Part shown: positions 1-20,596 of the stretch, piece after piece
Layout: each line of letters opens with the position of its first letter
How positions within the stretch are numbered: the stretch's first letter is position 1
Source of the DNA: Escherichia coli
GTDB taxonomy: Bacteria; Pseudomonadota; Gammaproteobacteria; Enterobacterales; Enterobacteriaceae
DNA length: 64,000 nucleotides
Direction: 5' to 3' (one strand)
Assembly: GCF_003790525.1 (NCBI RefSeq)
Contig: NZ_CP033635.1
Program-made: the position numbers and the translations under genes
The notes under the pieces: model-generated
What the model saw: only the letters and a program-made list of their open reading frames with translations
Told to the model about the DNA's origin: nothing
The model's database searches: none

Positions 1-1
1 A

Positions 2-1208: not shown

Positions 1209-1226
1209 GCCTCGCGGATCAGACAA

Positions 1227-1246: not shown

Positions 1247-1258
1247 GCAGGAGTGTAT

Positions 1259-4658: not shown

Positions 4659-5122
4659 TGATCGATGTTCGAATTATTCCCGCTACCGAAGAGCATCTTC
4701 AGATGATTTTGCCGGATGTTCGTCAGGCTGATATTGACGAACTGTATGCGGTATCGCTGATGACTACCGAAGATGCGCTGCGCGTTGGTCTGCGCACTGC
4801 GACTATGGCCTGGTCAGGGTTCGCGAACGGAGAACTGGTAACCATGTTTGGTGTATCTCCGGCGTCAATGATCGGTGGCAATGGTACACCCTGGCTGGTC
4901 GGGACCAGCCGTATTGAAAAATATCAGAAGACATTTCTGCGCCACTGCCGCCCTGTATTGCAGCAGATGCTGGCAGTTTATCCGCGCCTGGAAAACTACG
5001 TCGACGAGCGAAACTATGTTGCCAAAGCATGGCTGCACTGGCTTGGATTCAGGCTTGAAGAGGCCGCGCCTTATGGTGCTCTTGGTCTTAATTTCCACAG
5101 ATTTCACATGGAGAGAAAATAA
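4658..5122 (+). CDS. Internal virion protein (gp13-like position)
   Basis: 154 aa; gene order only. Confidence 0.45.
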   Translation: MIDVRIIPATEEHLQMILPDVRQADIDELYAVSLMTTEDALRVGLRTATMAWSGFANGELVTMFGVSPASMIGGNGTPWLVGTSRIEKYQKTFLRHCRPVLQQMLAVYPRLENYVDERNYVAKAWLHWLGFRLEEAAPYGALGLNFHRFHMERK

Positions 5123-5667: not shown

Positions 5668-8180
5668 TGCCAGTCGTACCAACAGTATCCGGACGTCAGG
5701 TTGAGAGCCGTGGAGTTCAGTCAGCAGGCTTGCAGACGTTTTCTCAGCCAGGTATTGGTGATGCTTTTGTTCTGGCAGGGGAAGAGGCAATTGATGTTTT
5801 TGGGCAGGCAAAACAGCGTGCCAATATTGCCTTGGCTCAGGAGGCATCTCTTAACCTCAGTCAGATAAGCAGTGATTTGCTGAATAATCCTGAAACAGGA
5901 TTGCTTAACCTGAAAGGGAAAAATGCTATTGGAAAAGGCCATGAGTATACGCAGCAGTTTGATGCTCAGGTCGAACAATTGGCTATGTCGCTGCCGGATG
6001 AACAGGCTCGTAATGCTTTCATGCAGCAGGCGCAGCAGCAGCGCATTCAGTTCACTACGCAGGCCGGGCGGCACGAGATAGGGCAAATAAATGCCTACGA
6101 AGAAGGCCAGTTTCAGGCGACGCTGCTGAACAATGGTAAAAATGCCGCAGCATTGTATGGCGACAACGCCGCATACGTATTGGCTAATAAGCAAACTTTC
6201 CAGCAAATTGAGGATTACGGCATTGCGCATGGCTGGAGCGACGAGCAAATCCAGGCCAAGAAAATCGAGTTTAAAGAGAAGGTTGCTGATGCCGCATTGT
6301 CCCAGTGGTCGGCAAACAATGCGACCGCATTCATCCAAAGTAATGGCGAGTTAAGTGATACTGCTGCTGGAGCTCGCCGTGCTGTAGCAGATAGTGACTC
6401 TTCCGAGCGTGCCCGTGGCATACGCAACAATAACCCAGGAAATCTCGAATACAGCAAAACTAATCCGTGGGTAGGCCAGACCGGTGATGATGGTCGATTT
6501 GCTAAATTCGAAACACCTGAACACGGGATTCGTGCATTAGGGCGGAACCTGATGTCGTATCAGAGGCAGGGTATTGATACCGTCAGCGAGATAATTAATC
6601 GCTGGGCACCGCCTACTGATAAAAATGACACTATGTCGTATATCAAAGCAGTGTGCGAACAACTTGGCGTTTCTGCTGATGAGCCTCTCGATGCATCTAA
6701 TCCTGATACCCTGAAGGCGCTTTGTGCAGCCATTATCCATCATGAGAACGGTAGCCAGCCATACAGTGATCAGCAGTTAACTGCTGGTGTCAGTGCAGCA
6801 CTTGGTTTATCAACAATTCCAACCAACATCAAACGCTATACCGGTAATGCAGCATTCGATGCGGCATCTCCTGAGGCGCAGGCAAGTTTTATGCGACAGG
6901 CGGATCAACTGCGTCGGCAGCAGCAGGCTGAATATAAAACGATGATTGACAGCCAGGTTCGCGATGCGACAGCTGCGTATATGCGTGGCGTTGAATTTCC
7001 TAACCCACCTGGTGAGGCTGATTTTATTGCAGCTTATGGAGTCAGAGAAGGAAACCTGCGATATACCGAGTTCAGAAATGCGCAAATCGCCGGACAGTAT
7101 ATAGGCTCTTTCCGCAACATGCCGACAAGCAGCATTACATCATATGTTGAGCAATTACGCCCGGATACTGGTGAGACAGGGGAGGGTTATGCGGCACGAG
7201 CCGCTCTTTATGACAACGTTGTGTCGGCTGCAAGTCAGGTGATAAAGCAGCGACAGGCTGATCCTGTACAGTTCTCTCTTGCCGCCGGACAGGCAAAGCC
7301 TATCGACATGAGCAATAAGGATAACTTTGGACAGAGCGTTGCCTTGCGTGCCGCTCAGGTCAGTGACCTTGCTAAGTCATATGGCACTCCACTGACGTTC
7401 TTTTCCAAAGACGAGGCCAATCAGATCGGTGTTTTCTTTCGTGATGCGCCCGTTTCCCAACAGGCAGCATATCTCGATACCATCAGGCAGAGCACTGGTG
7501 GTGGGCAGGTGTATATGTCAGCACTACAGCAGATCAGTGCCAACGCTCCATCTGCTGCCGTTGCCGGGATACTGATGGATAAGCCAGGTGGTATTTTGGC
7601 AGAAAAAAACTGGTTTAATCCGGATGTTTCCGTGTCTCCTGAAACCGCTGCGCAGACAATTCTTGCTGGCGCGGCGGCTCGTAAAGGTACTGATGACGCG
7701 AAAGGTATTCCGATGCCTAAAGATGCTGATCTTCGCCTTGAGTTTTCTGACATGGTGAAGGATGCATTTGCTGGTGATGCTCAGGGGGCATCAATGGCAT
7801 ACGAGATCGCAAAGGACTATTACGCTGGTGTGATGGCGAAAAAAGGCGTGGTATCAGGCGAAATTGACAATGATATCTGGAAACAGGCTGTTAACGTAGC
7901 TACAGGTGGCGTGCATGACTATAACGGAATGGGGAATGTTCTTTTGCCGTGGGGAATGTCTGCAGAGCAATTCGATAAGCAGGTTAATCAGGCTTGGAAT
8001 GAACAAGTTGTTGGCACAGGGATAAAAACACCGCCTGGTCAGTATGGTTTGCAAAGTTACGGCGATAGTCAGTACCTGGTGAAACTTGGTACTGGTTATC
8101 TGCTAAAAGATGATGGTTCTCCCGTTGTTCTTGATCTGACACAGAAGCGTCAGAGATTCTCCGGAGATATTCCGAAATGA
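5667..8180 (+). CDS. Internal virion / ejection protein (gp15-like position), 837 aa
   Basis: Start moved from ORF-track 5592 to ATG 5667, which overlaps the upstream stop (TAATG) and has GGAGG 7 nt upstream; contains a conserved-looking NNPGNL...W...RWAP motif block. Confidence 0.55.
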   Translation: MPVVPTVSGRQVESRGVQSAGLQTFSQPGIGDAFVLAGEEAIDVFGQAKQRANIALAQEASLNLSQISSDLLNNPETGLLNLKGKNAIGKGHEYTQQFDAQVEQLAMSLPDEQARNAFMQQAQQQRIQFTTQAGRHEIGQINAYEEGQFQATLLNNGKNAAALYGDNAAYVLANKQTFQQIEDYGIAHGWSDEQIQAKKIEFKEKVADAALSQWSANNATAFIQSNGELSDTAAGARRAVADSDSSERARGIRNNNPGNLEYSKTNPWVGQTGDDGRFAKFETPEHGIRALGRNLMSYQRQGIDTVSEIINRWAPPTDKNDTMSYIKAVCEQLGVSADEPLDASNPDTLKALCAAIIHHENGSQPYSDQQLTAGVSAALGLSTIPTNIKRYTGNAAFDAASPEAQASFMRQADQLRRQQQAEYKTMIDSQVRDATAAYMRGVEFPNPPGEADFIAAYGVREGNLRYTEFRNAQIAGQYIGSFRNMPTSSITSYVEQLRPDTGETGEGYAARAALYDNVVSAASQVIKQRQADPVQFSLAAGQAKPIDMSNKDNFGQSVALRAAQVSDLAKSYGTPLTFFSKDEANQIGVFFRDAPVSQQAAYLDTIRQSTGGGQVYMSALQQISANAPSAAVAGILMDKPGGILAEKNWFNPDVSVSPETAAQTILAGAAARKGTDDAKGIPMPKDADLRLEFSDMVKDAFAGDAQGASMAYEIAKDYYAGVMAKKGVVSGEIDNDIWKQAVNVATGGVHDYNGMGNVLLPWGMSAEQFDKQVNQAWNEQVVGTGIKTPPGQYGLQSYGDSQYLVKLGTGYLLKDDGSPVVLDLTQKRQRFSGDIPK

Positions 8181-9979
8181 GTTACTTTGGCCTTAATCCA
8201 GTAAACCAGAATCAGCAGCTTGACGAAGCAGCATCAAATCCAGTTGGCTTTAACAGCGATGTTGGTTTTTTCGACAATGCTGTAGGAGCGGCATTGTCTG
8301 GTTTGTACTCCGGGCTGGTGGCAAAGCCTGATCAGTTGCTCTGGGCAGGGATGGATAAAATCGTATCCCCGATTGCTCAGTTTGTTAACGAAAACACCTC
8401 GCTCAATGACACTTCAGTTTCATACATTGCCGAGCAGAGAAAACTAGCAGAGCAGCAGGTTAAGCGGCTGACGCCTGATGCCGCGACAACCGGAACCGCC
8501 GGGCAGGTTCTTTATGGGTTGTTCGATATGGGCGGGCAGGCTGTTATCGGTACAACGCTCGGTGGTCCGGTCGGAGGTGCTGCGGCGGTAACTTCGCTAC
8601 AGGGTTTTTCTGAGTTTGAACGGCTGACAGCACAGGGTGTTGATTTCAGGACGGCGCAGGAAGCGGGATTAGTGCAGGGTATTACTGCTGGTGCCGGAAC
8701 ACTGATCCCTATGAGCCTCGGGTTACGTGCTGGTGGTGCGCTGGCGGAAGGTGTGGCGGCTCAGCTTGCGCGGACGGGTGAAAGTTCAGTGCGACGCGCC
8801 GCAGCAACAGCAGTACGTGCAACGCCAGATATTGCCTATGCCGCAGGTACAAATATTGCGTTCGGTATGGCACAGCGTGGGCTTACTGCAAAAACGCTTC
8901 GTGATGGTGGCTATAGCGAAATGGCTAACCAGTATGATGTGTTGGATCGACAGGCAATTGCTATTGATGCTGTTCTTGGGGTGGCGTTTGGTGGTGTCGG
9001 CAGATTTATTAACTCTCGCGGCGAGTCTACAAGCGCACCAAATTTTTCACCAGTTGATATCGATGCTGCACTGGCGGCGAATGCCGCTCATCATGCTGAA
9101 ATTGATATTGCTCCCGGTGTGCCGATCAACGTGCTTTCGCGTAATTCGCACATTCAGGCTCTGCGAAAAGCCATGTCTGATGTTAGCCAGGGGAGACCTG
9201 TAGACGTTGCCAGCATTGTTGAGTCTGCATCTTTCAGTGAAATTCCTGGGCGCAAGAGTCTGCTTTCTCAGGCAGTTAATGAGGCTCTGTCATCTGTAGA
9301 TGATGGAGTAACGGCGCGCGCTATAGAAAATCGGTTGCTTGAAGAACAGGCCGCGCAGCTTTTGCCGCGTGGCGATAGACAGGTTTACCAGTCTGAAATC
9401 GCTAATAGCCAACGAATTATTGAAAATCTCACTGAACAGCGCGCACAAATTCTTGCAGAAGAGCCAACCGGTAGCGGTAAAGCTTTGTCTCGTGCTCGAT
9501 CAGATAAACAGGCCAGACTTCGCGATATTGATCAACGAATCCGGCAGGCACAAGAACGCCTGGAGTTTTCCCGTAACGCGTTGGCTCCGCACGAGCCTGG
9601 CGGTCAGTTTTTTGAAGCTCGAGCAGAACTGGCACGACGACAGCAGGCAGAAAGTGAACTTAATGCTCAGGCTGTTTCATTCTATAAAACAGCAGAGGTC
9701 AGGACGCCAGACGAAGTAGCTCCTTTTGAGCCCGGTAAGATATTGCAACAGACAGAACAAAAAATGATGGCAGATCCGGCAGGAGATATTGATCTGCGTA
9801 TAGCTGAAGACTCGCTGCTTGAATCTCCGGACATGATAATCACCGTGCTGGATGATGATGGTAATCCACAATCGCGCAGTGCGCGTGAAGTACTGGATGA
9901 AGCGAACAGGGAAAGTGAGCAGGCAATACAGGATTCCAGCCTGTTTGATGTTGCTGTGGCGTGTTTCTTGAGAGGTTAA
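8177..9979 (+). CDS. Internal virion / ejection protein, 600 aa, Gly/Ala-rich
   Basis: ATGA overlap with upstream gene; gene order. Confidence 0.5.
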   Translation: MSYFGLNPVNQNQQLDEAASNPVGFNSDVGFFDNAVGAALSGLYSGLVAKPDQLLWAGMDKIVSPIAQFVNENTSLNDTSVSYIAEQRKLAEQQVKRLTPDAATTGTAGQVLYGLFDMGGQAVIGTTLGGPVGGAAAVTSLQGFSEFERLTAQGVDFRTAQEAGLVQGITAGAGTLIPMSLGLRAGGALAEGVAAQLARTGESSVRRAAATAVRATPDIAYAAGTNIAFGMAQRGLTAKTLRDGGYSEMANQYDVLDRQAIAIDAVLGVAFGGVGRFINSRGESTSAPNFSPVDIDAALAANAAHHAEIDIAPGVPINVLSRNSHIQALRKAMSDVSQGRPVDVASIVESASFSEIPGRKSLLSQAVNEALSSVDDGVTARAIENRLLEEQAAQLLPRGDRQVYQSEIANSQRIIENLTEQRAQILAEEPTGSGKALSRARSDKQARLRDIDQRIRQAQERLEFSRNALAPHEPGGQFFEARAELARRQQAESELNAQAVSFYKTAEVRTPDEVAPFEPGKILQQTEQKMMADPAGDIDLRIAEDSLLESPDMIITVLDDDGNPQSRSAREVLDEANRESEQAIQDSSLFDVAVACFLRG

Positions 9980-9984
9980 ATTAA

Positions 9985-12459
9985 ATGAGACAGGAATGTA
10001 TACAAGCGGTCCAGCAGGCGGCGCAGCGCACGTTAACGGCGCGAGAAATACAGAACATTGAAGACCGCATTTATCGAAATATGCGCTCCATTGCTCGTGA
10101 TGACCCGATGTCGTGGCGACAACTTTCCGAATCAGAACGGTTGTATCGTGCAGCACAATTGGCATCTGAAGAATTACAGCGAGAAGCGGCATTAAAGAAA
10201 CGTCGTGTGGCCCTCACTATAGCCGCACGTCAGAGATTGGATAAATTTATCAATAGCTATCAAGGGGCTGATGGGAAACTTGGCGCTCTTAACCGTACTA
10301 TTGCTTTTAATGCAGACGGTAAATCGAATTTCCTCTCTGTTGAATCCAGAACAAAAGCCACCCGTGATTATGCATTGAGTCAATTGCAGGAGGCATTCGA
10401 AGCAGTTGATCCTCGCTTTTTTGGTCTGTTTGAAGATGAAGCGGGCGTACGTGACCTGGTATATGAAATGCGGGGGCAAAATACTGGCAATGCTAAAGCA
10501 AGAAAAGGTGCTAAGGCGTGGAGAGAAGTTACAGAGCTGCTGCGCCGCCGGTTTAATGATGCTGGTGGGGACATTGGCTATCTCGAAAACTGGGGGATCC
10601 CTCAACATCATTCTATGGAAAAGGTTGGGGCGGTATCAAAGGATAAGTGGGTTAGCGATGTTATAGGTAAGCTGGATCGCAAATATTATACCCGAGCCGA
10701 TGGACAACTGATGAACGATGCCGAGTTGTCTGAATTTCTTGGAGAGGCTTATAACACGATCGCTACTGGTGGGCTGAATAAGCTTACTGATACCGGAATG
10801 CGAATTTCCGGCGCACGTGCTAACCGTGGTAATGCATCACGACAGATACATTTCAAAGATGCAGATTCCTATCTGCAATATCAGCAACTTTATGGCGATC
10901 GCTCTCTATGGGAAATCATGGTCGGTCACCTGGAAGGTATCAGTAAAGATATTGCGCTGGTGGAAACATATGGCCCAAACCCCGATCATGTTTTCCGCTC
11001 CCTTCTTGATCAGGTTAAGGCAGAAACGGCAACAGCTAACCCGAGTAAAACCGGTAGCGTCGAGCGTCTGGCGAACAAAACAGAGAACTTGTACAACTTT
11101 ATTTCCGGAAAAACACAGCCTGTAGCGAATCCGCACATCGCGCGATGGTCTGACAATATCCGCAACTGGCTGGTTGCCAGCAGACTCGGATCCGCGTTGC
11201 TGTCATCGTTCTCTGATCTTGGAACCATGTATCTGTCTGCGAAGGTTACCAACCTTCCAATGAACCAGTTATTTCGCAACCAGCTTGAAGCTATGGACCC
11301 AACGAACCGTACAGAACTTGCGCGGGCGCGCCGCGCTGGCCTGGCGATGGAATCTCTACTTGGCAGCGTTAACCGCTGGGCGATGGATAATATGGGGCCG
11401 TCTGTGTCTCGTTGGGCGGCAACGGCGGTAATGCGTGCCAGTGGGCTTACAGCATGGTCAGATGCGCACAAGCGCGCCTATGGCGTAACCATGATGGGAA
11501 GCCTGGGAGAAGTAGTGTCACGGACACCAGACCTTCGTAGCCTCGATGACTCTGATTTTCGTATCCTGAAAAGCAAAGGGATTACTGACACAGACTGGAG
11601 CGTATGGAAGCTGGCGCAACAGGAGGACTGGGGGAACGGTAATAATACGATGCTGACACCGGAAAGCATTATGCGTATCCCTGATTCAGCAGTTAAACAT
11701 CTTGGTGAGCCTGAACGCGTGAAATTTGAGGCAATGCGTAAACTGCTCGGTGCCGTAACTGAAGAAGTTGATATGGCTGTTATTACACCGGGCGCACGTG
11801 AACAGATGTTCGTAGGGTCTGGTCTTCAGCGTGGAACATGGAAAGGTGAATTAACGAGAAGTGTTTTCCTGTTTAAATCGTTCCCTATCTCGGTAGTTAT
11901 GCGTCACTGGCATAGAGCTATGGGGATGCCGTCTGCTGGTGGGCGTGCGGCATATATAGCAACGTTTTTAGCAAGCACAACCATGCTTGGTGCTCTTTCC
12001 ATGCAGATTACTGATCTTATTAATGGGAGAAATCCAAAAGAAATGACCGGTGACAACATGGTTAAATTCTGGATAAATGCATTTTTAAAAGGTGGTGGGG
12101 CAGGGTTGTATGGTGATTTTCTTTTCTCTGACCACACCAGGTACGGGAGCGGCGCACTAGCGTCGATGCTTGGCCCGGTAGCTGGTCTGGTTGATGACGT
12201 AGTGAAGATTGCTCAGGGCATACCGTTAAATGCTGTGGAAGGGAAGAATGAGCAGACTGGTGGTGATCTGGTTAAGCTTGGGAAAGGTTTGATGCCTGGT
12301 GCGAATCTCTGGTACTTGAAGGCGGCTCTCGATCACATGATCTTTAATCAGATGCAGGAGTATTTTTCACCAGGCTATTTGCGTAAAATGGAGCAACGTT
12401 CGAAGAAAGAGTTTAACCAGACATACTGGTGGCGACCTCAGGATGTCACTCCGCAATAA
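9985..12459 (+). CDS. Internal virion / ejection protein (gp16-like position), 824 aa
   Basis: Last large gene of the structural operon; AGAGG RBS upstream. Confidence 0.5.
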   Translation: MRQECIQAVQQAAQRTLTAREIQNIEDRIYRNMRSIARDDPMSWRQLSESERLYRAAQLASEELQREAALKKRRVALTIAARQRLDKFINSYQGADGKLGALNRTIAFNADGKSNFLSVESRTKATRDYALSQLQEAFEAVDPRFFGLFEDEAGVRDLVYEMRGQNTGNAKARKGAKAWREVTELLRRRFNDAGGDIGYLENWGIPQHHSMEKVGAVSKDKWVSDVIGKLDRKYYTRADGQLMNDAELSEFLGEAYNTIATGGLNKLTDTGMRISGARANRGNASRQIHFKDADSYLQYQQLYGDRSLWEIMVGHLEGISKDIALVETYGPNPDHVFRSLLDQVKAETATANPSKTGSVERLANKTENLYNFISGKTQPVANPHIARWSDNIRNWLVASRLGSALLSSFSDLGTMYLSAKVTNLPMNQLFRNQLEAMDPTNRTELARARRAGLAMESLLGSVNRWAMDNMGPSVSRWAATAVMRASGLTAWSDAHKRAYGVTMMGSLGEVVSRTPDLRSLDDSDFRILKSKGITDTDWSVWKLAQQEDWGNGNNTMLTPESIMRIPDSAVKHLGEPERVKFEAMRKLLGAVTEEVDMAVITPGAREQMFVGSGLQRGTWKGELTRSVFLFKSFPISVVMRHWHRAMGMPSAGGRAAYIATFLASTTMLGALSMQITDLINGRNPKEMTGDNMVKFWINAFLKGGGAGLYGDFLFSDHTRYGSGALASMLGPVAGLVDDVVKIAQGIPLNAVEGKNEQTGGDLVKLGKGLMPGANLWYLKAALDHMIFNQMQEYFSPGYLRKMEQRSKKEFNQTYWWRPQDVTPQ

Positions 12460-12468
12460 GGAACAACA

Positions 12469-12882
12469 ATGAAGGAATTATTGCTGTTATCGGTATTTTT
12501 GATATCCGCTTGCTCGACATCCTATGATGTTTATGACGGTGTTGATAAGGCATATTGCGACAAAGTTAAAATGGATTTTTCTCTTGCCAAGACGGCGAAG
12601 GATAGTTGTATTGATCACTACGTCAAGACTTATACCAAGCCAGCCTCATCGGCATCTGATATTGCTGAAGGTGCTGTGTTTGAGTGTAACAAGGTGATAT
12701 CCATCGCAGCGAGTTCTTCATACGATGCTGCTGTATGTGCAATGGCTGAAAGAAACGGCATGTCAGTGCAAAAAATTAATAGCATGATAAGCAGTAATGA
12801 CGAAGCCAAAATAAGAACTGATATCAGCTCGGTGAAAAAAGATGCCATGAACAGAGTTGTAAAATATCAGTCATCTTTATAA
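12469..12882 (+). CDS. Prophage lipoprotein (signal peptide with lipobox L-I-S-A-C), 137 aa, AT-rich gene
   Basis: N-terminus MKELLLLSVFLISAC read directly; AAGGA RBS; sits at the start of the accessory island. Confidence 0.65.
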   Translation: MKELLLLSVFLISACSTSYDVYDGVDKAYCDKVKMDFSLAKTAKDSCIDHYVKTYTKPASSASDIAEGAVFECNKVISIAASSSYDAAVCAMAERNGMSVQKINSMISSNDEAKIRTDISSVKKDAMNRVVKYQSSL

Positions 12883-12897
12883 GTCGTGACATGTCAC

Positions 12898-12922
12898 AGG
12901 CCGCTTTCGCGGCCTTGTTTTT
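12898..12922 (+). terminator. Intrinsic terminator of the structural operon / lipoprotein gene
   Basis: AGGCCGC-TTTC-GCGGCCT hairpin followed by TGTTTTT. Confidence 0.6.
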
Positions 12923-13082
12923 AACGAATGCCACCGCCACCCGGGCGGGAATCCGCAGAACGCCCACCGCAGCGGGAGCCGTCAGCAGCAGTGTCGCTGT
13001 CGTGCTGACAACGACCGGCAAAGGCCTGAGTTGAAGCTACCAGAGACAACAAAACGAACAGTGCAGCAAATGCTTTTTTCAT
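12921..13082 (-). CDS. Candidate small secreted peptide (53 aa, Sec signal MKKAFAALFVLLSLVASTQAFA, two Cys)
   Basis: Internal ATG of the 77-aa ORF; convincing signal peptide but weak RBS; possible TTGACG / TATAGA promoter just upstream. Confidence 0.3.
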   Translation of the reverse strand: MKKAFAALFVLLSLVASTQAFAGRCQHDSDTAADGSRCGGRSADSRPGGGGIR

Positions 13083-13154
13083 TGTGAAATTTCCATCTAT
13101 AAGCCACCTCAATGTGGCGTCAATGAGTGTAGCACTGACTTTTGTTTCGCCCAC

Positions 13155-13176
13155 AAAAAAGCCCGCAGCGCGGGCT
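13155..13176 (-). terminator. Intrinsic terminator of the cargo operon
   Basis: AGCCCGC-GCU-GCGGGCU hairpin followed by six U on the - strand; overlaps the stop codon at 13175. Confidence 0.6.
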
Positions 13177-13615
13177 ATTCTTCTTCATCATTAAAAAGCG
13201 GATTGTTGTTTCCATCTGATGAAAGGAAAGGTATGTGTTCTCTTGAAAATCCAACAATGACAATTTCATTATCATTTTTTGCATAATGAATGCATTCATT
13301 AGAATGCCTTCCGCCAGGGTTGAAATTTAAGTTAATGGTATAATTCTTAAATGTGTTTGGATACCATGTTGGCCCACAATGATAATGCCAATAATTCTCT
13401 TGCTCATAATTGTCTGAGCCGGGAATTTTATCATGGTTATCATCAACCCACGAGGGCTTGTTTTTTCCAACAAGCGCCCTTCCATTGGCAACATCCTCTA
13501 AAAAACTTTGTATGATTTTTATTTCATCATCAGTAAGGAAAGGTCCGTCTACAGCGAAAGGGGTGTTGCTTTCCCCATGTAGAAAACTATTAGATATTCT
13601 AATGTTAAACTTCAA
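13175..13615 (-). CDS. Hypothetical cargo protein, about 146 aa, low GC, Asn-rich, no recognised domain
   Basis: Probable TTG start at 13615 with AGGAG RBS 6 nt upstream, 20 nt after the stop of the 55-aa ORF; ORF track shows a longer frame from 13756 that overlaps the upstream gene. Confidence 0.5.
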   Translation of the reverse strand: MKFNIRISNSFLHGESNTPFAVDGPFLTDDEIKIIQSFLEDVANGRALVGKNKPSWVDDNHDKIPGSDNYEQENYWHYHCGPTWYPNTFKNYTINLNFNPGGRHSNECIHYAKNDNEIVIVGFSREHIPFLSSDGNNNPLFNDEEE

Positions 13616-13635
13616 GGAAAACTCCTGATGTGCTT

Positions 13636-13803
13636 CTATTTGGAGCGAAATGCCGCCTTGAAGTCGCTGAAAGATGTTCCTGTCTGGTAAACCATATCCT
13701 TGTCGCGCTCTTTGCTTGCGCGGCCAAGCATAACTTTTCCAATGACATCCCAGCATTGCTTGGCTTGTTCATTGTGCTGAGTACGATTTTTCAACGCTGT
13801 CAT
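13636..13803 (-). CDS. Small protein (55 aa), first gene of the cargo operon; possible regulator or antitoxin-like partner
   Basis: ATG with AGGAGG RBS 6 nt upstream, placed immediately downstream of promoter P_A; translated by hand. Confidence 0.5.
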   Translation of the reverse strand: MTALKNRTQHNEQAKQCWDVIGKVMLGRASKERDKDMVYQTGTSFSDFKAAFRSK

Positions 13804-13815
13804 ATCGCGCCTCCT

Positions 13816-13858
13816 TTACCTTTAAGGTAATAGTACGCTATTCACCCACAGTCTGCAA
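13816..13858 (-). promoter_or_regulatory. Promoter P_A (-35 TTGCAG at 13853-13858, 17-bp spacer, -10 TACTAT at 13830-13835) with operator copy A (TTACC-TTTAA-GGTAA, 13816..13830)
   Basis: Hexamers and the 15-bp palindrome read directly; the operator abuts the -10 and the RBS. Confidence 0.55.
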
Positions 13859-13867
13859 TCTGTACAG

Positions 13868-13894
13868 AATTATTTAAAGGCACATCCCTGTGCC
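13868..13894 (-). terminator. Terminator-like hairpin after the antirepressor-like gene (GGCACA-GGGA-TGTGCC then TTTAAATAATT)
   Basis: Hairpin read directly; T-rich but interrupted tail. Confidence 0.45.
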
Positions 13895-13902
13895 GCCGCC
13901 CG

Positions 13903-14589
13903 TCAGAAGAACCCAGCCTTGTCGTTGATGTACTCCGCGTGGGTCTGGATATCACGCAGGCATTTGCTCACACCAACAATGTAGCAGAACATGGTGGTCA
14001 GCTCCGCCGCCGCGCCCGATACGTCGTGCCCGTCTTCCTGTAACTGGTTCAGCAGATTCATCAGCAGTGAGTTCTCCGTCAGGCCGAGAACACCAGACGG
14101 AGAATGAATCAGGCTGCGGTAGCCGGGCTTCAGTGGGGCACTGTAGGTTTTGTTCTCTATCTTCATTGCCTGCATCACTGCTGATGCTGTGGCGTTGGCT
14201 ACCTGGTCGGCAACTATCTTTATGCGTTCTTCCTGCGGGAGCGAGTTTTTAATGTAACTTCCGGTGCGGCGGATCTGAGGAAGAACCTCACCTGTAACCC
14301 ATTTACGAAAGCGGTAGGGGATAGTGCCTGGTGTCACTGCGTCGCGGCAGCGGAGGATCAGTGTGTAGAGGCCTGACTCGTTGATAATATTGGTTTCACC
14401 TTGACGGCCTAAGTTAAATTTAGCCCTTTCATCATCATCAAGAGATTTTATTGACATAGTGGGGTTTGTCAGTTGAAGAGCTTTAATAACGTCTTTGGCA
14501 ACAAACCAAGGATTTCCATCAATAACAATGGCTCGAATGGTGGCTTCTGATTCAAAATGAAAAACAGATGGGGTTACGTTAGCAGTCAT
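13903..14589 (-). CDS. Antirepressor-like protein with N-terminal BRO-N / AntA-type domain, 228 aa
   Basis: Motifs FHFE...IR..IDG.PWFVAKDV and ESGLY.LI read in the translation (BRO-N family, from memory); start set at ATG 14589 with AAGGTGA RBS rather than ORF-track 14742, which has no RBS and a Gly/Cys-rich non-protein-like extension. Confidence 0.8.
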   Translation of the reverse strand: MTANVTPSVFHFESEATIRAIVIDGNPWFVAKDVIKALQLTNPTMSIKSLDDDERAKFNLGRQGETNIINESGLYTLILRCRDAVTPGTIPYRFRKWVTGEVLPQIRRTGSYIKNSLPQEERIKIVADQVANATASAVMQAMKIENKTYSAPLKPGYRSLIHSPSGVLGLTENSLLMNLLNQLQEDGHDVSGAAAELTTMFCYIVGVSKCLRDIQTHAEYINDKAGFF

Positions 14590-14742
14590 AGTGATCACCT
14601 TTGTAGTTAGGTTAATCACCACTACCGACGCCAATCGGTTGGTGGTGAACTGTGCAGGGTTGGCGTAACCGGCTACAAAGGACCCGGCGCACCTTTCGGT
14701 GCCCCCACACAGCCCACCATAGAATAGGTGCGCTTTACACAT

Positions 14743-14761
14743 AAAAAAACCGCTTATGCGG
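14743..14761 (-). terminator. Short intrinsic terminator or attenuator in the leader of the antirepressor-like gene (CCGC-AUAA-GCGG followed by seven U)
   Basis: Read on the - strand; stem is only 4-5 bp, so call is tentative. Confidence 0.4.
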
Positions 14762-14855
14762 CATATGTGCCTCTGTAGTAACCCGGGACGCCAATCCCGG
14801 CACTGGATTTTGCCAGTGCCCGATTACTATGGCACAAGAGGAGTGCGATGTAAAT

Positions 14856-14898
14856 TTACCGAAAAGGTAATAATAAACACTCTACTTGGTAATTGCAA
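14856..14898 (-). promoter_or_regulatory. Promoter P_B (-35 TTGCAA at 14893-14898, 17-bp spacer, -10 TATTAT at 14870-14875) with operator copy B (TTACC-GAAAA-GGTAA, 14856..14870)
   Basis: Near-consensus sigma70 hexamers with exact 17-bp spacing; palindrome overlaps the -10 and start site. Confidence 0.6.
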
Positions 14899-14901
14899 AC
14901 C

Positions 14902-15159
14902 TTATCTGGTTTGTTTTCGTAATTGTTCGGCACAATAGTCGAGATGTGTTTGCAGATCCCGCATAGACATCTGTGAGCTGGTGACGTAGTTAATCAGTGC
15001 AGTCAGTTCGGCAAGTGGGCCATCGACATTAAATCCATCCTTATCGAGATCCCGGAGTAATTTCATCAAGTGCGATCCCTCCACCAGTGACCTGACGCCT
15101 CCCGGCGTGTGAATCCTTTCGGTAAATCCGTCTTCCAGTGGATAGTGATACTGCTGCAT
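14902..15159 (-). CDS. Small protein (85 aa) paralogous to the C-terminal domain of the adjacent antirepressor-like protein; candidate SOS-controlled small antirepressor
   Basis: By-eye alignment with the last ~70 aa of the 228-aa protein shows about 40 percent identity; ATG 15159 with GGAG RBS; LexA box directly upstream. Confidence 0.6.
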   Translation of the reverse strand: MQQYHYPLEDGFTERIHTPGGVRSLVEGSHLMKLLRDLDKDGFNVDGPLAELTALINYVTSSQMSMRDLQTHLDYCAEQLRKQTR

Positions 15160-15178
15160 CTTATCTTCTCCATGCAAT

Positions 15179-15198
15179 AACTGTATATTTATACAGTA
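15179..15198. promoter_or_regulatory. LexA (SOS) box AACTGTATATTTATACAGTA
   Basis: 18 of 20 positions match the consensus TACTGTATATATATACAGTA including both CTGT and ACAG arms; located immediately upstream of the 85-aa gene. Confidence 0.65.
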
Positions 15199-15235
15199 TC
15201 AAATAATTTGTTTGCTATCCAGCACGTTTTGCAAA

Positions 15236-15250
15236 TTACCCGAAAGGTAA
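15236..15250. promoter_or_regulatory. Operator copy C (TTACC-CGAAA-GGTAA) in the divergent region between the 85-aa gene and the tailspike gene, next to a TTGCAA hexamer (15229-15234)
   Basis: Third copy of the 15-bp palindrome; promoter partner hexamers not clearly assignable. Confidence 0.45.
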
Positions 15251-15354
15251 TATCTATTCGTATTTACAGTCTTTCTATCCATATGTGGTTTTTCAGGTAA
15301 TAGAATAACCAGATATGCGGCGCAACGGGTGCTGCGACTATCTGGAGATTTAAC

Positions 15355-17544
15355 ATGACGGTCTCAACCGAAGTTGACCACAACGAATACACCGGTAACG
15401 GCGTTACGACATCATTTCCGTATACCTTCCGTATTTTCAAAAAAACCGACCTGGTTGTTCAGGTGTCTGACCTGAACGGGAACGTAACAGAATTGGTTCT
15501 GGATACCGGTTATAAGGTAACTGGAGCGGGCACTTATAGTGGCGGTGAAGTGGTTCTCCAGTCGCCGCTTGCTGCTGGCTGGCGAATTACGATAGAGCGT
15601 GTGCTTGATGTGGTGCAGGAGACTGATCTTCGCAATCAGGGAAAATTTTTCCCCGAAGTTCATGAAGATGCATTTGACTACCTGACGATGCTGATCCAGC
15701 GATGTTTTGGGTGGTTCAGACGTGCATTGATGAAACCATCTTTGCTTGCAAAATATTACGATGCAAAGCAAAACAAAATTTCTAACCTTGCAGATCCATC
15801 ATTTGAGCAGGACGCTGTAAATAATCGCTCAATGCGTAATTATGTCGATGCTGCAATCGCCGGGGTTGTTGGTGGTTTTGGTTGGTTTATACCGTCAGGA
15901 AGCGGGGCAAGACAACGAACATTTCAAAGCAAAATGAGGGATATAATTTCTCCTTGTGATTACGAAGATAATATTTTTATGATTAAGGAGTTGATATCCA
16001 AAGGCAAAAATGCCGCTGTTTTTAACTCATATTATACTTTTGTTATTACTGTTGGCGAATGGGGTGATTTCCCTACACTCAAAGATGCAATCATTGCAGC
16101 CCAGTCAATGAGACCTATGTGGGATGGTGGTAATGCTTTCTGCGAAATAAGAATTAAGACCGGGCATATTATCAACTATCAAATTGAATTCAGTTCAGGT
16201 GTTGATTTGTCTTGGATTAAAATAACATCAGAAGACTCAGTGGTTTTCTCTGACACTCGTTTGTTTACTAAAATCGTTAGAACGTATTACGAATACAAGT
16301 ATTTATTTTACATTTGCGATGCAGCAAAAAGTCCTGTATTTGCTATTCAGATCGAAGAAAATAGAGATGATAGCGATGTTTGTGCATTTATTGTAACTCA
16401 AAAAGCTGAACTTAATTTCTATCCGTATTCAGGTGCTCGAAAGTTCTACGTTGGAATTCATGGTAGTTTTGGTGCAAAAATTAGTGCATATCATACCGGA
16501 TGTGCTCCTGATGAGGAAAGTGTTGCTGCATATATGCCAGAAGGGTATTACGTATGTGATTTTTCTTATAGCAGATACTCTTCCCTGCAACTGGTAAATA
16601 ATGTCAAGGCATCAATGCCTGTAAGCAAGTTTGAACGGTGCACAGAGAGTACGGTTGCGTCAGTTAATTGTATTTATAATGTTAAAGCAGATTTTCAGGG
16701 GTCAAGTGCAAGCTATTGTTATATAGGATGGAATGTAAGAGATGGTTCAAATGTTAATATACGCGACCATAAAACTATACATTGCTCATATCGTGGATTA
16801 ACCTGCATTCATACAGCATATGTTGATGCAAGACGACATGACGTTGAAGAAAGTGATGCAGAAACAAGTGGTAAAGTCCTTGAACCAAATATTGAAAAAG
16901 GTTTTTATGGATGTGCACTTGGTGTGCGTATTGATGGTGCGGGTTGCGTTGATGTTGCTGGTAATGATATGCGCAATTGTGGAACAGCCGTTAATGCAGA
17001 CACTGGTGCTGTTATTTCAGGAAAGGCTGTAGATATCTCAGGGGCTGAGCTGGGATTTGATTGCCATGCAGGAGCATCTGTTAATTTTCCAAGGCTATGG
17101 GGTACAGATATAAAAAAATTAATGCACCTCCAAGATGGTGTAAGGTTTAACTCTAATATTTGTCATGTATTTGGTGCAAATCCCACAAAAGATATTAGAT
17201 GGATTGATGTAGAGAGATCTGAAGCTTCTTTTATGAATGCAACGCTGGATGCAGATTCAGGATTTATTGCCGACTGTGGTAGTAGGATAACCATTGAAGG
17301 AAGTAAAGTTAAAAACCAAACAATAAGAAGTTTTTTTGGATCATATGTGGCTATAAATAATACTGTTGCTGACAGAACTTATTCAGATATAGCCGATGTT
17401 CCGCAGTTGACTATTAGTGGAGGATCTTTTATTTCTGCTACAGGATATTCTAATTCTGACTCCAGCCCTCTGAGGTTGAGCACAACACGAAATACACTTG
17501 GCGTTGGAGGAGCCATATTTTCAACCAATGGGGAAGTTTCATGA
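15355..17544 (+). CDS. Tailspike / tail fiber protein, 729 aa: conserved N-terminal virion-attachment domain plus divergent C-terminal receptor-binding part
   Basis: N-terminus carries the YTGNGVTT.F.Y.F pattern typical of podovirus tail fiber or tailspike adapters (from memory); C-terminal two thirds are AT-rich and Cys-rich; GGAG RBS 7 nt upstream. Confidence 0.7.
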   Translation: MTVSTEVDHNEYTGNGVTTSFPYTFRIFKKTDLVVQVSDLNGNVTELVLDTGYKVTGAGTYSGGEVVLQSPLAAGWRITIERVLDVVQETDLRNQGKFFPEVHEDAFDYLTMLIQRCFGWFRRALMKPSLLAKYYDAKQNKISNLADPSFEQDAVNNRSMRNYVDAAIAGVVGGFGWFIPSGSGARQRTFQSKMRDIISPCDYEDNIFMIKELISKGKNAAVFNSYYTFVITVGEWGDFPTLKDAIIAAQSMRPMWDGGNAFCEIRIKTGHIINYQIEFSSGVDLSWIKITSEDSVVFSDTRLFTKIVRTYYEYKYLFYICDAAKSPVFAIQIEENRDDSDVCAFIVTQKAELNFYPYSGARKFYVGIHGSFGAKISAYHTGCAPDEESVAAYMPEGYYVCDFSYSRYSSLQLVNNVKASMPVSKFERCTESTVASVNCIYNVKADFQGSSASYCYIGWNVRDGSNVNIRDHKTIHCSYRGLTCIHTAYVDARRHDVEESDAETSGKVLEPNIEKGFYGCALGVRIDGAGCVDVAGNDMRNCGTAVNADTGAVISGKAVDISGAELGFDCHAGASVNFPRLWGTDIKKLMHLQDGVRFNSNICHVFGANPTKDIRWIDVERSEASFMNATLDADSGFIADCGSRITIEGSKVKNQTIRSFFGSYVAINNTVADRTYSDIADVPQLTISGGSFISATGYSNSDSSPLRLSTTRNTLGVGGAIFSTNGEVS

Positions 17545-17837
17545 TTAAGAGCATTGATGTCACTCCATTTCTTCACTCGCTTTGCGCTTTTGCGGCTCAG
17601 GTACTGGTTGGTATTTTTACCGGAAACTGGGCTTACGGTGCGATAGCCGGTTGTACGTTCTTCATTGCGCGTGAACACACCCAGGCAGAATATCGCTGGA
17701 TAGAAAAGTTTGGGAAAGGGAAACGTATCAACATGCCGTGGTGGGGAGGTTTTGATCCACGCGTGTGGGATGTGGGAAGTCTGTTGGATTTTGCTGTTCC
17801 TGTTGTTTTTTGTTTTTGTGTTTATTTCTCTATTTGA
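17541..17837 (+). CDS. Small membrane protein (98 aa, two hydrophobic helices)
   Basis: ATGA overlap with the tailspike stop; hydrophobic stretches in translation. Confidence 0.5.
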   Translation: MIKSIDVTPFLHSLCAFAAQVLVGIFTGNWAYGAIAGCTFFIAREHTQAEYRWIEKFGKGKRINMPWWGGFDPRVWDVGSLLDFAVPVVFCFCVYFSI

Positions 17838-18039
17838 CTGCTACCGCGCCATTAAATGGTGCGGTATTCAACCTGCTCTTCACTGTTTGTTTCTTCAGAG
17901 TCATGTAAAAGGTGAGCTTTATTCTCGGCATGAAAAACAGGGAATTGACGATGTTAAAGTAACAAAAAACCATAAATGGTTTATTATGCGTAATGCTTTA
18001 CTGTTCAGGAGGTTGTTATGCATATAAACGGTGGAAAAC

Positions 18040-18444
18040 ATGTCAGCTCAACTAACCAGTGAAACTTTAAATCAGTGGCTTAGCATGAGTTCTCTGGCGG
18101 CGGTGATAGCAGGAGTTCCTCCTGAGGTTGCTTTGGGTGCTTTGGCTGGAGCGGTAATTTTTGTTACCTCTGCAGTAGAGTACCCCATCCGTCGCCGGGT
18201 GCTCCTGTCGATGCTCAGCTTTCTTTGCGGCCTTCTCTTTTACAAACCAGCAGCATCAATTCTTATCGGCATAGCCAGCCTGATCCCTACCATCACGCAG
18301 GACTCTTTTGAAAAAGGGATTGTTTTCTCTGCAGGCGCATTCGTGTCAGCAATTGTCGCTGTGCGTATTGGTATATGGCTCTATCACCGTTCCGATAATC
18401 CACGCGAGTTAATTCCGGGGAGAAAAGACGATGGTAACGCATGA
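18040..18444 (+). CDS. Membrane protein, holin or antiholin candidate (in-frame alternative start GTG 18031)
   Basis: Several predicted transmembrane stretches; two in-frame starts three codons apart (GTG-GAA-AAC-ATG). Confidence 0.45.
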   Translation: MSAQLTSETLNQWLSMSSLAAVIAGVPPEVALGALAGAVIFVTSAVEYPIRRRVLLSMLSFLCGLLFYKPAASILIGIASLIPTITQDSFEKGIVFSAGAFVSAIVAVRIGIWLYHRSDNPRELIPGRKDDGNA

Positions 18445-18739
18445 GTTTTTTTTGCTTATCACCAATGCAGTTATTTGCACTGGCATAGCAATTCGCGTTG
18501 TCACATTCCGGCGTAACGGCTCTCAACACCGAAGGTGGGGAGGATGGCTTGCTTATTTCCTGATTGTTGCTGCGGCCAGTATTCCTGTTCGTGTCGCCTA
18601 TGCAATCTGGTTACGTACGCCAATGGCTGTGGATTTATCTGAGGTCATTATCAACGCTGTCATGCTAGCTGCGGTTATTAAAACGCGCGGTAACGTCGTT
18701 CAAATTTTCAAAGTATCGAGGTCTAAACATGGAGATTAA
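18431..18739 (+). CDS. Holin candidate (102 aa, 2-3 transmembrane helices) immediately upstream of the endolysin
   Basis: Position and hydrophobicity pattern; overlaps neighbours at both ends. Confidence 0.5.
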
Positions 18740-19358
18740 ACAATTCCAGCGAGCTGCTGGTATCAGCGAGGCACTGGCCGCACGCTGGTTCTCGCATATA
18801 ACTTCTGCGATGAAAGAGTTTGGTATCAGCAAACCAGAAGATCAGGCTATGTTTATTGCTCAGGTCGGGCATGAGTCTGGAGGCTTCACCCGGTTGCAGG
18901 AGAATTTCAACTACAGCGTCAGCGGACTGGCTAACTTTGTTCGGGCTGGGCGTCTCACTCAGGGACAGGCCAACGCATTGGGGCGACGTGCAGGCGAACC
19001 ACCATTGCCACTTGAGCGCCAGAGAGCGATTGCCAATCTGGTGTACAGCAAACGCATGGGGAACAATGCCCCTGGTGATGGCTGGAACTACCGTGGGCGC
19101 GGGCTTATCCAGGTTACCGGTTTGAATAACTATCGTGACTGTGGAAACGGTCTTAAGGTTGACCTGCTGGAGAGTCCTGAACTGCTGGCGCAGGACGAAT
19201 ACGCGGCTCGTAGCGCGGCGTGGTTCTTTGCCAGCAAAGGATGCATGAAGTATACCGGCGATATTGCACGTGTAACTCTGATTATCAATGGTGGCCGGAA
19301 CGGCATCGACGACCGGCGCGCGCGATACATCAATGCCAGTAAGGTGCTGGCGGTATGA
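18729..19358 (+). CDS. Endolysin, glycoside hydrolase family 19 (chitinase-like) type
   Basis: Motifs [18 protein letters not shown] and NYRD read in the translation, recalled as GH19-type phage lysozyme signatures; position between holin and Rz. Confidence 0.8.
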
Positions 19359-19837
19359 TCTGGGCATTCGTAAAAGCATACTGGAAACAGTTGGTTATCA
19401 TGGCGATGCTTGCTGTTCTGGTCATATCAGGAGTTGTAGCCTGGAATGCACACGGTAGTCGTCAGTACGACGCCGGGTATGCGCAGGCGGAAGAAGACCG
19501 CAAAGACGAAGAAGACAAAGTTCGTCAGTACTACGAACAGGAGAAAGTGACCAATGAACGTGAAGCGCAGCAAAGAATCGACCAGGCGCGCAATGATGCT
19601 CTTGATGCTGCCGCTCGCGCTGGCAGGTTGCAGCAACAACTCTTTGCCATCCGTGAGCAGCTCAGGCAGTATAACGCCATTGTCGGCGCTGGGACGTCAG
19701 CCGCAGACACCGGAGTTTTGCTTGCCGACGTGCTCAGCAAATCTCTCGAGAGAAACAGACAACTGGCAGAGTATGCTGACCGGGCAGCCGAAGCCGGAAG
19801 AGTCTGCGAAAAACAGTACGACACCCTGACCAGATAG
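19355..19837 (+). CDS. Rz-like i-spanin (N-terminal transmembrane helix, coiled-coil periplasmic domain)
   Basis: ATGA overlap with endolysin stop; typical Rz architecture. Confidence 0.7.
19554..19829 (+). CDS. Rz1-like o-spanin lipoprotein, fully embedded in the Rz gene in the +1 frame
   Basis: Signal peptide ending in lipobox LAGC, Pro-rich mature part, embedded arrangement as in lambda Rz/Rz1 (established knowledge). Confidence 0.65.
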   Translation: MNVKRSKESTRRAMMLLMLPLALAGCSNNSLPSVSSSGSITPLSALGRQPQTPEFCLPTCSANLSRETDNWQSMLTGQPKPEESAKNSTTP

Positions 19838-19992
19838 CATGGTATTTTTCATGGCACTGATTTCCGGTGACGGTATATAAAACGGTACGGGAAAAGTTGA
19901 GCTTTGGAAAAATGTTATCACTCAATTGGTTATGGTGTCCGTGAATAATTGAGTGGGAATGATTTTGATCCCTGCACTATGAATGAACAAAA

Positions 19993-20018
19993 CCCTCTGT
20001 TACTACAGAGGGTTTTTT
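19993..20018. terminator. Bidirectional intrinsic terminator (CCCTCTGT-TACT-ACAGAGGG flanked by A-run and T-run) at the prophage / yfgI junction
   Basis: Perfect 8-bp stem with six T after it on + and four on -. Confidence 0.6.
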
Positions 20019-20056
20019 ATACTCACGAATCATAGGCTTGAAGTTACTGACATCGC

Positions 20057-20596
20057 TTAGTTAAACCAGCTGTCCGATTTGTTCTCTTCTGCTTTGCCCA
20101 CGCTTTTCATCAGATCGCGACCGCCTTCAGTCATATTTCTGTTTGCGTCAGCTTCAGATTGCACCACATCGGTTTGCGCAGCTTTGTGCTTCAGTTCCTG
20201 ATCGATAAATTCGTTTTCTCGCTTAACGCGGGCTTCTTCTTTCGCCAGCGCCAGTTTTTGTTTCTGAATCTCTAAGCTGCGTAGCTCATCTTCATAACTT
20301 TGATCGCGTTTTTTGTCCGCAGTGGCTTCGGCGTCCAGTTTATCCTGACGAGCTTTCTTATTCGCTGCTGCCGTTGCCGCTCTTTTATTAGCCGCGGCCT
20401 GGGCGTTTGCGCGACGTTGCTTCTCTTGCTGGATTTCCCTGTTGCGCTCCGCGACCCATTCGTCATGCTGCCTTTGCTCTTCATTTTTACCTTGCTGTTC
20501 CGCTTCTGCGACAGCAGAGAGTTGATCCTGCAATGATGAGGCGATAGCCGGATAGCTTAAGGAGGCTAAGATGGCGCAAAGAAAAACTTTCTTCAT
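20057..20596 (-). CDS. yfgI: YfgI, periplasmic protein (179 aa)
   Basis: Signal peptide plus Lys/Glu/Ala-rich repeats; matches recalled K-12 protein and gene order. Confidence 0.85.
   Translation of the reverse strand: MKKVFLCAILASLSYPAIASSLQDQLSAVAEAEQQGKNEEQRQHDEWVAERNREIQQEKQRRANAQAAANKRAATAAANKKARQDKLDAEATADKKRDQSYEDELRSLEIQKQKLALAKEEARVKRENEFIDQELKHKAAQTDVVQSEADANRNMTEGGRDLMKSVGKAEENKSDSWFN

What the first reader, a model, noticed from the sequence alone, without database searches (positions are those of the whole stretch)
19838..20056. Prophage / chromosome junction with no recognisable att core or tRNA
Seen: about 150 bp of non-coding DNA between the Rz stop and the yfgI terminator with no tRNA-like structure and no obvious direct repeat inside the window. 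The attachment core must lie in this interval.
Basis: inference. Interest (0 to 1): 0.4.

Follow-up and report, generated by a model that had tools for sequence, protein, structure and literature searches.

The report
Known phage attachment site at guaA

Summary
The junction is real and lies inside 19838-20056, but the claim of "no recognisable att core" is wrong. The core ATTGAGTGGGAATGATT is at 19948-19964. [quoted passage not shown] Its first 15 bases are the last four codons and the stop codon of guaA.

- **Left of 19948:** the DNA is phage. The P arm is 89-92% identical to the Rz-to-core segment of phiV10 and ZX5, and it carries the predicted integrase arm site GTGACGGTAT.
- **From 19948 rightwards:** the DNA is the native guaA-yfgI spacer with its bidirectional terminator. 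It is 100% identical to an empty-site strain, and K-12 also aligns from exactly 19948.

The prophage starts beyond the left edge of the window, so attL, the integrase gene and guaA are not in it. In a related lysogen (MS20659) the second core copy sits between guaA and int.

No tRNA is involved, because this phage group targets a protein gene. About 10% of complete E. coli genomes (550 of 5,426) carry the same junction. This is already known and of low interest.

The parts
19355..19837 (+). Rz-like i-spanin, the last gene of the prophage late/lysis operon
   Evidence: ORF. PHROG phrog_312 Rz-like spanin, E=1.6e-59. 93-95% nucleotide identity to phiV10, ZX5 and BP9.
19554..19829 (+). Rz1-like o-spanin, embedded in Rz in another frame
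   Evidence: ORF. phrog_11621 Rz-like spanin, E=4.3e-41. The same embedded gene is annotated in phiV10 and epsilon15.
19838..19947 (+). P arm of attR: phage-derived DNA between the Rz stop and the core
   Evidence: Ungapped identity to the same segment of free-phage attP is 98/110 for phiV10, 101/110 for ZX5 and 82/110 for epsilon15. Identity to the guaA sequence that occupies this position at the empty site is only 30/110.
19867..19876 (+). Predicted arm-type integrase binding site GTGACGGTAT, with a second ACGGTA half-copy at 19882-19887
   Evidence: Exact match to the 10-mer annotated 'integrase / integration' at four places in the epsilon15 RefSeq record. The first of these is at the homologous position. 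Binding has not been tested.
19916..19928 (+). IHF-like motif TATCACTCAATTG (consensus WATCAANNNNTTR, one mismatch)
   Evidence: Found. It lies within the segment homologous to the IHF site annotated in epsilon15 at L003 2562-2584, which maps to window 19916-19938. This is a prediction only.
19948..19964 (+). att core (O): ATTGAGTGGGAATGATT, the identity segment shared by attP, attB, attL and attR
   Evidence: Single exact copy in the window. Exact copies are present in phiV10, ZX5 and epsilon15 attP, in empty-site attB (XDL, K-12 type) and at both ends of the MS20659 prophage (alignments). It is identical to the core published in PMC9782041.
19948..19962 (+). Detached 3' tail of guaA: ATT GAG TGG GAA TGA = I E W E stop
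   Evidence: Empty-site matches starting at 19948 overlap the annotated guaA CDS. In XDL, guaA ends at L002 2515 and the core is at 2501-2517.
19951..19957 (+). Inferred 7-bp overlap (strand-exchange) region GAGTGGG. It is flanked by the imperfect inverted repeats AATAATT (19944-19950) and AATGATT (19958-19964)
   Evidence: Read directly from the sequence. The reverse complement of the right half matches the left half at 6 of 7 positions. This is inference by analogy with lambda-type core sites. It has not been tested.
19965..20056 (+). B' arm: native guaA-yfgI intergenic DNA
   Evidence: 92/92 identical to empty-site strain XDL. Colinear with a K-12-type strain apart from a few substitutions and small indels.
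19989..20016 (.). Bidirectional intrinsic terminator hairpin shared by the convergent genes guaA and yfgI. In the lysogen it now ends the phage late operon on the + strand
   Evidence: 12-bp stem, 4-nt loop, T-run on the + strand and A-run (T-run on the other strand). Folding energy is -17.9 kcal/mol on the + strand and -21.2 kcal/mol on the - strand, z = -4.3 and -5.0, with 0 of 200 shuffles as stable. The simple consensus scanner did not call it.
20057..20596 (-). yfgI (DUF5384 protein), the first chromosomal gene to the right of the prophage
   Evidence: ORF. Annotated yfgI in all matching genomes.

Best explanation
Window 19838-20056 is the attR junction (P arm - core - B' arm) of a Uetakevirus (epsilon15/phiV10-like temperate podovirus) prophage. 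[quoted passage not shown]

Shown:
- The phage attP lies between the last late gene (Rz/Rz1) and int.
- It shares a 17-bp identity segment, ATTGAGTGGGAATGATT, with the last four codons, the stop codon and two further bases of guaA.
- Recombination within this segment linearises the phage so that int is next to guaA at attL and the lysis cassette is next to yfgI at attR.
- In the window, the core is 19948-19964. Everything to its left is phage DNA, and everything from it rightwards is the unaltered guaA-yfgI spacer.
- Because the stop codon is inside the core, guaA stays intact in the lysogen.

Inferred:
- Strand exchange occurs in the central GAGTGGG, between imperfect inverted core-type sites.
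- It is assisted by Int bound at the arm sites GTGACGGTAT and by IHF.
- A phage-borne look-alike of the guaA terminator in the P' arm insulates int from guaBA read-through. The native terminator at 19989-20016 stops the late operon before yfgI.
For: 1. The 17-mer occurs exactly once in the window, at 19948-19964. The same 17-mer is in attP of phiV10, ZX5 and epsilon15, in attB of two empty-site strains, and at both prophage ends in MS20659 (alignments).
2. PMC9782041 reports this same sequence as the attP/attB core of ZX5, verified by PCR and Sanger sequencing of attB, attL and attR. It states that the sequence was already proved for phiV10 and epsilon15. TL-2011b, a phiV10 relative, is also reported to be inserted in guaA.
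3. More than 5,000 E. coli genomes with an empty site, including K-12 MG1655, align to the window only from 19948 onwards, and the match overlaps the guaA CDS.
4. The P arm is 89-92% identical to phiV10 and ZX5 attP, against 27% identity to the guaA sequence it replaces. The B' arm is 100% identical to XDL.
5. Window 1-19964 is 97% covered at 97.2% identity by phage HEMP4 and 80% covered at 96% by phiV10. The HEMP4 and phiv142-3 records end or begin exactly at the core.
6. In MS20659, the order is guaA - core - terminator - int ... Rz - core - yfgI. The guaA protein accession is the same as in the empty-site strain.
7. 550 of 5,426 complete E. coli genomes have the same P-arm/core/B' junction. 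That fits site-specific rather than random insertion.
Against: The second core copy, int and guaA of this particular strain are outside the window. Completeness and excision competence of this prophage therefore cannot be shown from the window.

The exact cleavage positions, Int arm binding and IHF binding are predictions. They rest on GenBank annotation of epsilon15 and on motif matches, not on experiments seen here.

The epsilon15 and phiV10 primary papers could not be read. Their att data are cited second-hand through PMC9782041.
Confidence: 0.95

Rival explanations
1. The true junction lies further left, inside or at the Rz gene, and 19838-20056 is entirely chromosomal intergenic DNA.
For: None found. 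It was only a prior possibility, because the interval is non-coding.
Against: K-12 and all other empty-site genomes align only from 19948. 19838-19947 is 89-92% identical to free-phage DNA between Rz and the core.
Confidence: 0.01
2. Insertion without an att core, by transposition (Mu-like), illegitimate recombination, or integration into a tRNA or tmRNA gene that has since decayed.
For: No tRNA in the window. No repeat within the window.
Against: A 17-bp core identical to the published attP/attB is present. The same site is occupied in 550 genomes. Relatives encode a tyrosine integrase next to attP. The empty site has no tRNA, only the guaA stop and a terminator.
Confidence: 0.01
3. The junction is a fossil. 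It is an intact-looking attR belonging to a defective or truncated prophage whose int/attL end has been lost or rearranged, so the site no longer functions.
For: The window holds only about 19.9 kb of an expected prophage of about 39.5 kb. The left end cannot be inspected. Some related lysogens carry IS200C insertions or pseudogenes in or near the element.
Against: The core is perfect, the arm site is perfect, and the P arm is as conserved as in viable phages. All late and lysis ORFs in the window are open and full length against PHROG profiles. The visible part is colinear with isolated phages.
Confidence: 0.1

Closest known systems
attP/attB of Escherichia phage vB_EcoP_ZX5 (Uetakevirus), integrating at the 3' end of guaA (PMC9782041)
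   Same: Identical 17-bp core. Same target (guaA stop codon region). Same position of attP, between the Rz stop and int. The P arm is 101/110 identical.
   Different: The window prophage has a different tailspike: a 729-aa phrog_5662 protein, not the endosialidase-type protein. Some accessory genes also differ. There is no difference at the att site itself beyond 9 substitutions in the P arm.
Escherichia phage phiV10 and Salmonella phage epsilon15 att sites (Perry et al. 2009; Kropinski et al. 2007, as cited in PMC9782041; RefSeq NC_007804, NC_004775)
   Same: Identical core. The arm-type 10-mer GTGACGGTAT is at the homologous position. The terminator lies downstream of the core in attP, and int follows.
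   Different: The epsilon15 P arm is only 74.5% identical. phiV10 and epsilon15 carry O-antigen-modifying genes upstream of the lysis cassette, which the window prophage lacks at that position.
Lambda-type (arm-binding tyrosine integrase) att site architecture
   Same: A short identity core flanked by long phage arms that carry a repeated arm-type motif and IHF-like motifs. The integrase in relatives is a P4/lambda-class tyrosine recombinase.
   Different: The target is the 3' end of a protein-coding gene, not an intergenic site (lambda) or a tRNA (P4, P22). The protein-DNA contacts and the overlap region have not been mapped experimentally, as far as the material read here shows.

Membership tests
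attR of a Uetakevirus (epsilon15/phiV10/ZX5-type) prophage at guaA | Presence of the 17-bp core ATTGAGTGGGAATGATT | tested here: met
   Exact single copy at 19948-19964. Published core sequence in PMC9782041.
attR of a Uetakevirus (epsilon15/phiV10/ZX5-type) prophage at guaA | The core coincides with the 3' end (stop codon) of guaA and is followed by the native guaA-yfgI spacer | tested here: met
   Empty-site alignments start at 19948 and overlap the guaA CDS. The B' arm is 92/92 identical to XDL.
attR of a Uetakevirus (epsilon15/phiV10/ZX5-type) prophage at guaA | DNA to the left of the core is homologous to the phage attP P arm and is contiguous with Rz/Rz1 | tested here: met
   98/110 (phiV10) and 101/110 (ZX5) ungapped identity. 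Rz and Rz1 confirmed.
attR of a Uetakevirus (epsilon15/phiV10/ZX5-type) prophage at guaA | The adjacent prophage is colinear with Uetakevirus genomes | tested here: met
   Window 1-19964 is 97% covered at 97.2% identity by HEMP4 and 80% covered at 96% by phiV10.
attR of a Uetakevirus (epsilon15/phiV10/ZX5-type) prophage at guaA | A second core copy (attL) between guaA and a tyrosine integrase gene at the other prophage end | not testable with these tools
   The other end is outside the window. The feature is met in the related lysogen MS20659: core at L001 41546-41562, between guaA (41548-43125) and int (40105-41355).
attR of a Uetakevirus (epsilon15/phiV10/ZX5-type) prophage at guaA | Recombination competence: excision regenerates attP and attB | not testable with these tools
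   Needs induction and junction PCR. This was shown experimentally for ZX5 only.
Lambda-type arm-dependent tyrosine-integrase att site | Repeated arm-type Int binding motif in the phage arms | tested here: inconclusive
   GTGACGGTAT at 19867-19876 matches the motif annotated four times in epsilon15. This is a sequence prediction, with no binding data.
Lambda-type arm-dependent tyrosine-integrase att site | IHF bending sites between the arm sites and the core | tested here: inconclusive
   One-mismatch matches to WATCAANNNNTTR at 19916-19928 and 19920-19932. IHF sites are annotated at the homologous place in epsilon15.
tRNA/tmRNA-targeting prophage integration | A tRNA or tmRNA gene, or its 3' fragment, at the junction | tested here: not met
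   ARAGORN found 0 genes in the whole window. Rfam gave only sub-threshold leader hits caused by the terminator hairpin.

The most novel reading that the evidence does not exclude
The phage P' arm, seen in phiV10, ZX5 and epsilon15 attP and in attL of lysogens but not in the window, carries a terminator whose sequence is 25/27 identical to the host guaA terminator, although the spacer between core and terminator is unrelated.

This could mean that the ancestral phage captured the guaA 3' flank, for instance by imprecise excision, and has kept only the two functional pieces: the core and the terminator. If so, each junction of the lysogen ends in the same hairpin, and int is insulated from the strongly expressed guaBA operon. 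Such patchy attP/attB homology does not appear to be remarked on in the material I could read.
Probability: 0.35. Interest if true: 0.2.

Novelty: already known. Interest (0 to 1): 0.07.

Why it matters
It matters only for annotation. It fixes the prophage boundary at 19947/19948 to single-base accuracy on the phage side, with the 17-bp core at 19948-19964. It identifies the element as a Uetakevirus prophage at its canonical guaA site. It also explains why no tRNA or repeat was visible. The case illustrates that a prophage can target the 3' end of a protein gene, and that the second att copy may lie outside a fixed-size window. No new biology is implied.

Tried and rejected
- **Terminator scan:** the consensus scan found nothing in 19700-20200, although a strong hairpin with a T-run is present. 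I treated the scan as a false negative.
- **Rfam at a permissive threshold:** it gave only His and Phe leader hits (21 and 20 bits, against gathering scores of 49 and 55). These overlie the terminator hairpin, so I rejected them as chance.
- **k-mer search for repeats:** it found one 13-mer inverted match at 14770-14782. Reading the sequence shows no hairpin or att-like context, so I rejected it as chance (0.39 expected).
- **Epsilon15 genome paper, PMC2698709:** it is not held, so the att data for epsilon15 and phiV10 are second-hand via PMC9782041 and the GenBank annotations.
- **Source strain:** I looked for it among complete E. coli genomes to obtain its own attL. The best matches are 98.7-98.9% identical. 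No exact strain was found, so attL was taken from the related lysogen MS20659.

Full report
**What is at the coordinates**

The interval 19838-20056 lies between the stop codon of a 160-aa ORF (19355-19837, + strand) and the stop codon of yfgI (20057-20596, - strand). The 160-aa ORF is an Rz-like i-spanin (phrog_312, E=1.6e-59). An Rz1-like o-spanin is embedded in it at 19554-19829 (phrog_11621, E=4.3e-41). Upstream lie a GH19-type endolysin, two holin-family proteins and a 729-aa tail fibre/tailspike protein. To the right come yfgI, yfgH, yfgG and pdeF (yfgF), as in every E. coli chromosome examined. ARAGORN finds no tRNA or tmRNA anywhere in the 64-kb window.

**Where the junction is**

A megablast of 19600-20300 against 5,426 complete E. 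coli genomes matched 5,416 of them. In the great majority the match starts at query base 349, which is window 19948, and overlaps the annotated 3' end of guaA. In 362 genomes it covers the whole query including Rz.

A junction-only query (19852-20056) gave the same breakpoint at query base 97, again window 19948, for K-12 MG1655 and other empty-site strains. It gave full-length matches in 550 genomes.

That does not occur. The chromosome begins at 19948.

**The core**

I aligned the window junction with four other kinds of sequence:
- both ends of the related prophage in strain MS20659 (L001);
- the empty site of strain XDL (L002);
- a K-12-type strain (L006);
- the Rz-to-int region of free phages phiV10, ZX5 and epsilon15 (L004, L005, L003).

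One 17-bp segment, ATTGAGTGGGAATGATT, is common to all of them. It occurs exactly once in the window, at 19948-19964. It occurs once in each attP and attB, and twice in MS20659, once at each prophage end.

Its first 15 bases are ATT GAG TGG GAA TGA, the last four codons and the stop codon of guaA. In XDL, guaA ends at L002 2515 and the core spans 2501-2517.

The arms on either side behave as expected:

| Segment | Compared with | Identity |
|---|---|---|
| P arm, 19838-19947 | phiV10 attP P arm | 98/110 |
| P arm, 19838-19947 | ZX5 attP P arm | 101/110 |
| P arm, 19838-19947 | epsilon15 attP P arm | 82/110 |
| P arm, 19838-19947 | guaA sequence at this position in the empty site | 30/110 |
| B' arm, 19965-20056 | XDL empty site | 92/92 |

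This is the classical P-O-B' structure of an attR.

**It is a published site**

PMC9782041 describes the temperate Uetakevirus vB_EcoP_ZX5. It gives "attgagtgggaatgatt" as the core of attP (190 bp upstream of int) and of attB (3' end of guaA). [quoted passage not shown] Another phiV10 relative, TL-2011b, is reported as inserted in guaA.

The window's phage DNA (1-19964) is 97% covered at 97.2% identity by Escherichia phage HEMP4, and 80% covered at 96% by phiV10. The HEMP4 and phiv142-3 records end or begin exactly at the core. The prophage is therefore a member of this group at its canonical site.

The prophage is about 39.5 kb in relatives, and only its right-hand 19.9 kb is in the window. 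The second core copy, the integrase gene and guaA lie beyond window position 1.

Within the window, no repeat of 14 bases or more links the interval to anything else. A 13-mer inverted match at 14770 is a chance hit.

In MS20659 the other end reads guaA (L001 41548-43125) - core (41546-41562) - phage terminator - int (40105-41355), all in one orientation. The guaA protein there has the same accession as in the empty-site strain, so the gene is not damaged by integration.

**Anatomy and likely mechanism**

Shown:
- the core and the two arms;
- the position of attP between the last late gene and int in the free phages;
- a strong bidirectional hairpin terminator at 19989-20016. It has a 12-bp stem and folds at -17.9 kcal/mol on the + strand and -21.2 kcal/mol on the - strand, with z-scores of -4.3 and -5.0.

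Predicted:
- The 10-mer GTGACGGTAT at 19867-19876 is identical to the motif annotated as an integrase binding site four times in the epsilon15 RefSeq record, once at the homologous place. A second ACGGTA follows at 19882-19887.
- An IHF-like motif, TATCACTCAATTG, lies at 19916-19928, inside the stretch annotated as an IHF site in epsilon15.

Inferred from the sequence:
- The core and its left flank read AATAATT-GAGTGGG-AATGATT. These are two 7-bp imperfect inverted repeats (6/7) around a 7-bp centre.
- This is the layout of core-type sites around an overlap region in lambda-type systems. I therefore propose strand exchange within GAGTGGG (19951-19957).

The integrase of the relatives is a P4/lambda-class tyrosine recombinase with an arm-binding N-terminal domain.

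**A small extra**

Downstream of the core, the phage P' arm carries a terminator, AACCCTCTGTTTTTACAGAGGGTTTTT. It is 25/27 identical to the host guaA terminator, AACCCTCTGTTACTACAGAGGGTTTTT. The 44-nt phage spacer and the 26-nt host spacer between core and terminator are unrelated. The local alignment score is 23, against a shuffle mean of 8.9 and a shuffle maximum of 15, with 0 of 2000 shuffles reaching it.

In the lysogen, guaA therefore keeps a near-identical terminator, supplied by the phage, between it and int. The original terminator now ends the phage late operon in front of yfgI. This is consistent with the general rule that phages integrating into the 3' ends of genes carry a replacement for what they displace. 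It is tidy but not surprising.

**Verdict**

The feature is real and precisely placed, but it is an already described attachment site. The "missing core" is an artefact of reading without reference sequences and of the window edge. I rate the novelty as already known and the interest at about 0.07.

What remains uncertain is whether this particular prophage is complete and excision-proficient. That cannot be judged from the window.

Noticed in passing
L004 2655-2681 (phiV10 attP P' arm); L001 attL region about 41470-41500; compare window 19989-20016: The phage P' arm carries a terminator 25/27 identical to the host guaA terminator, although the spacer between core and terminator is unrelated (44 nt in the phage, 26 nt in the host). 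0 of 2000 shuffles reach the alignment score. It probably insulates int from guaBA read-through and replaces the displaced guaA terminator.
   Followed up: partly
window 15355-17544: The tailspike/tail fibre (729 aa) shares only its N-terminal ~200 aa with many PHROG tail families. The full length matches a single family, phrog_5662. The related prophages in MS20659 and ZX5 carry a ~1040-aa endosialidase-type (K1 capsule) protein at this position instead. This is the usual receptor-binding module swap, implying a different host surface specificity.
   Followed up: partly
window 17541-18030: Between the tailspike and the lysis cassette, phiV10 carries the O-acetyltransferase gene oac, and epsilon15 carries its O-antigen conversion genes. 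The window has only a 98-aa membrane-like ORF of unknown function (phrog_1443), which overlaps the tailspike stop, followed by about 190 bp without an ORF. No obvious serotype-conversion gene is present at that position.
   Followed up: no
window 13903-14742 (-) and 13175-13756 (-): There is an anti-repressor (Ant/BRO-N type, phrog_130, E=1.6e-56) and an unknown-function gene on the opposite strand, between the tail genes and the tailspike. Some related prophages have a YafO-family toxin annotated in this variable region.
   Followed up: no
window 19964-19968 versus L001 and L006: The T-run immediately right of the core is polymorphic in length. The window and XDL read GATTTTGATC, MS20659 reads GA-TTTGAAC, and the K-12 type reads GATT-TGA-CC. 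The 17-bp core itself is unaffected.
   Followed up: yes
E. coli genomes H7, H56, H58-H62: Several genomes have an IS200C transposase annotated under or next to the match to the guaA-yfgI/prophage-end region. This suggests that the terminator hairpin region is also a recurrent IS200 target.
   Followed up: no
window 19700-20200: The consensus terminator scanner reported no terminator, although a 12-bp-stem hairpin with a T-run is present at 19989-20016. This is a tool false negative worth knowing about.
   Followed up: yes
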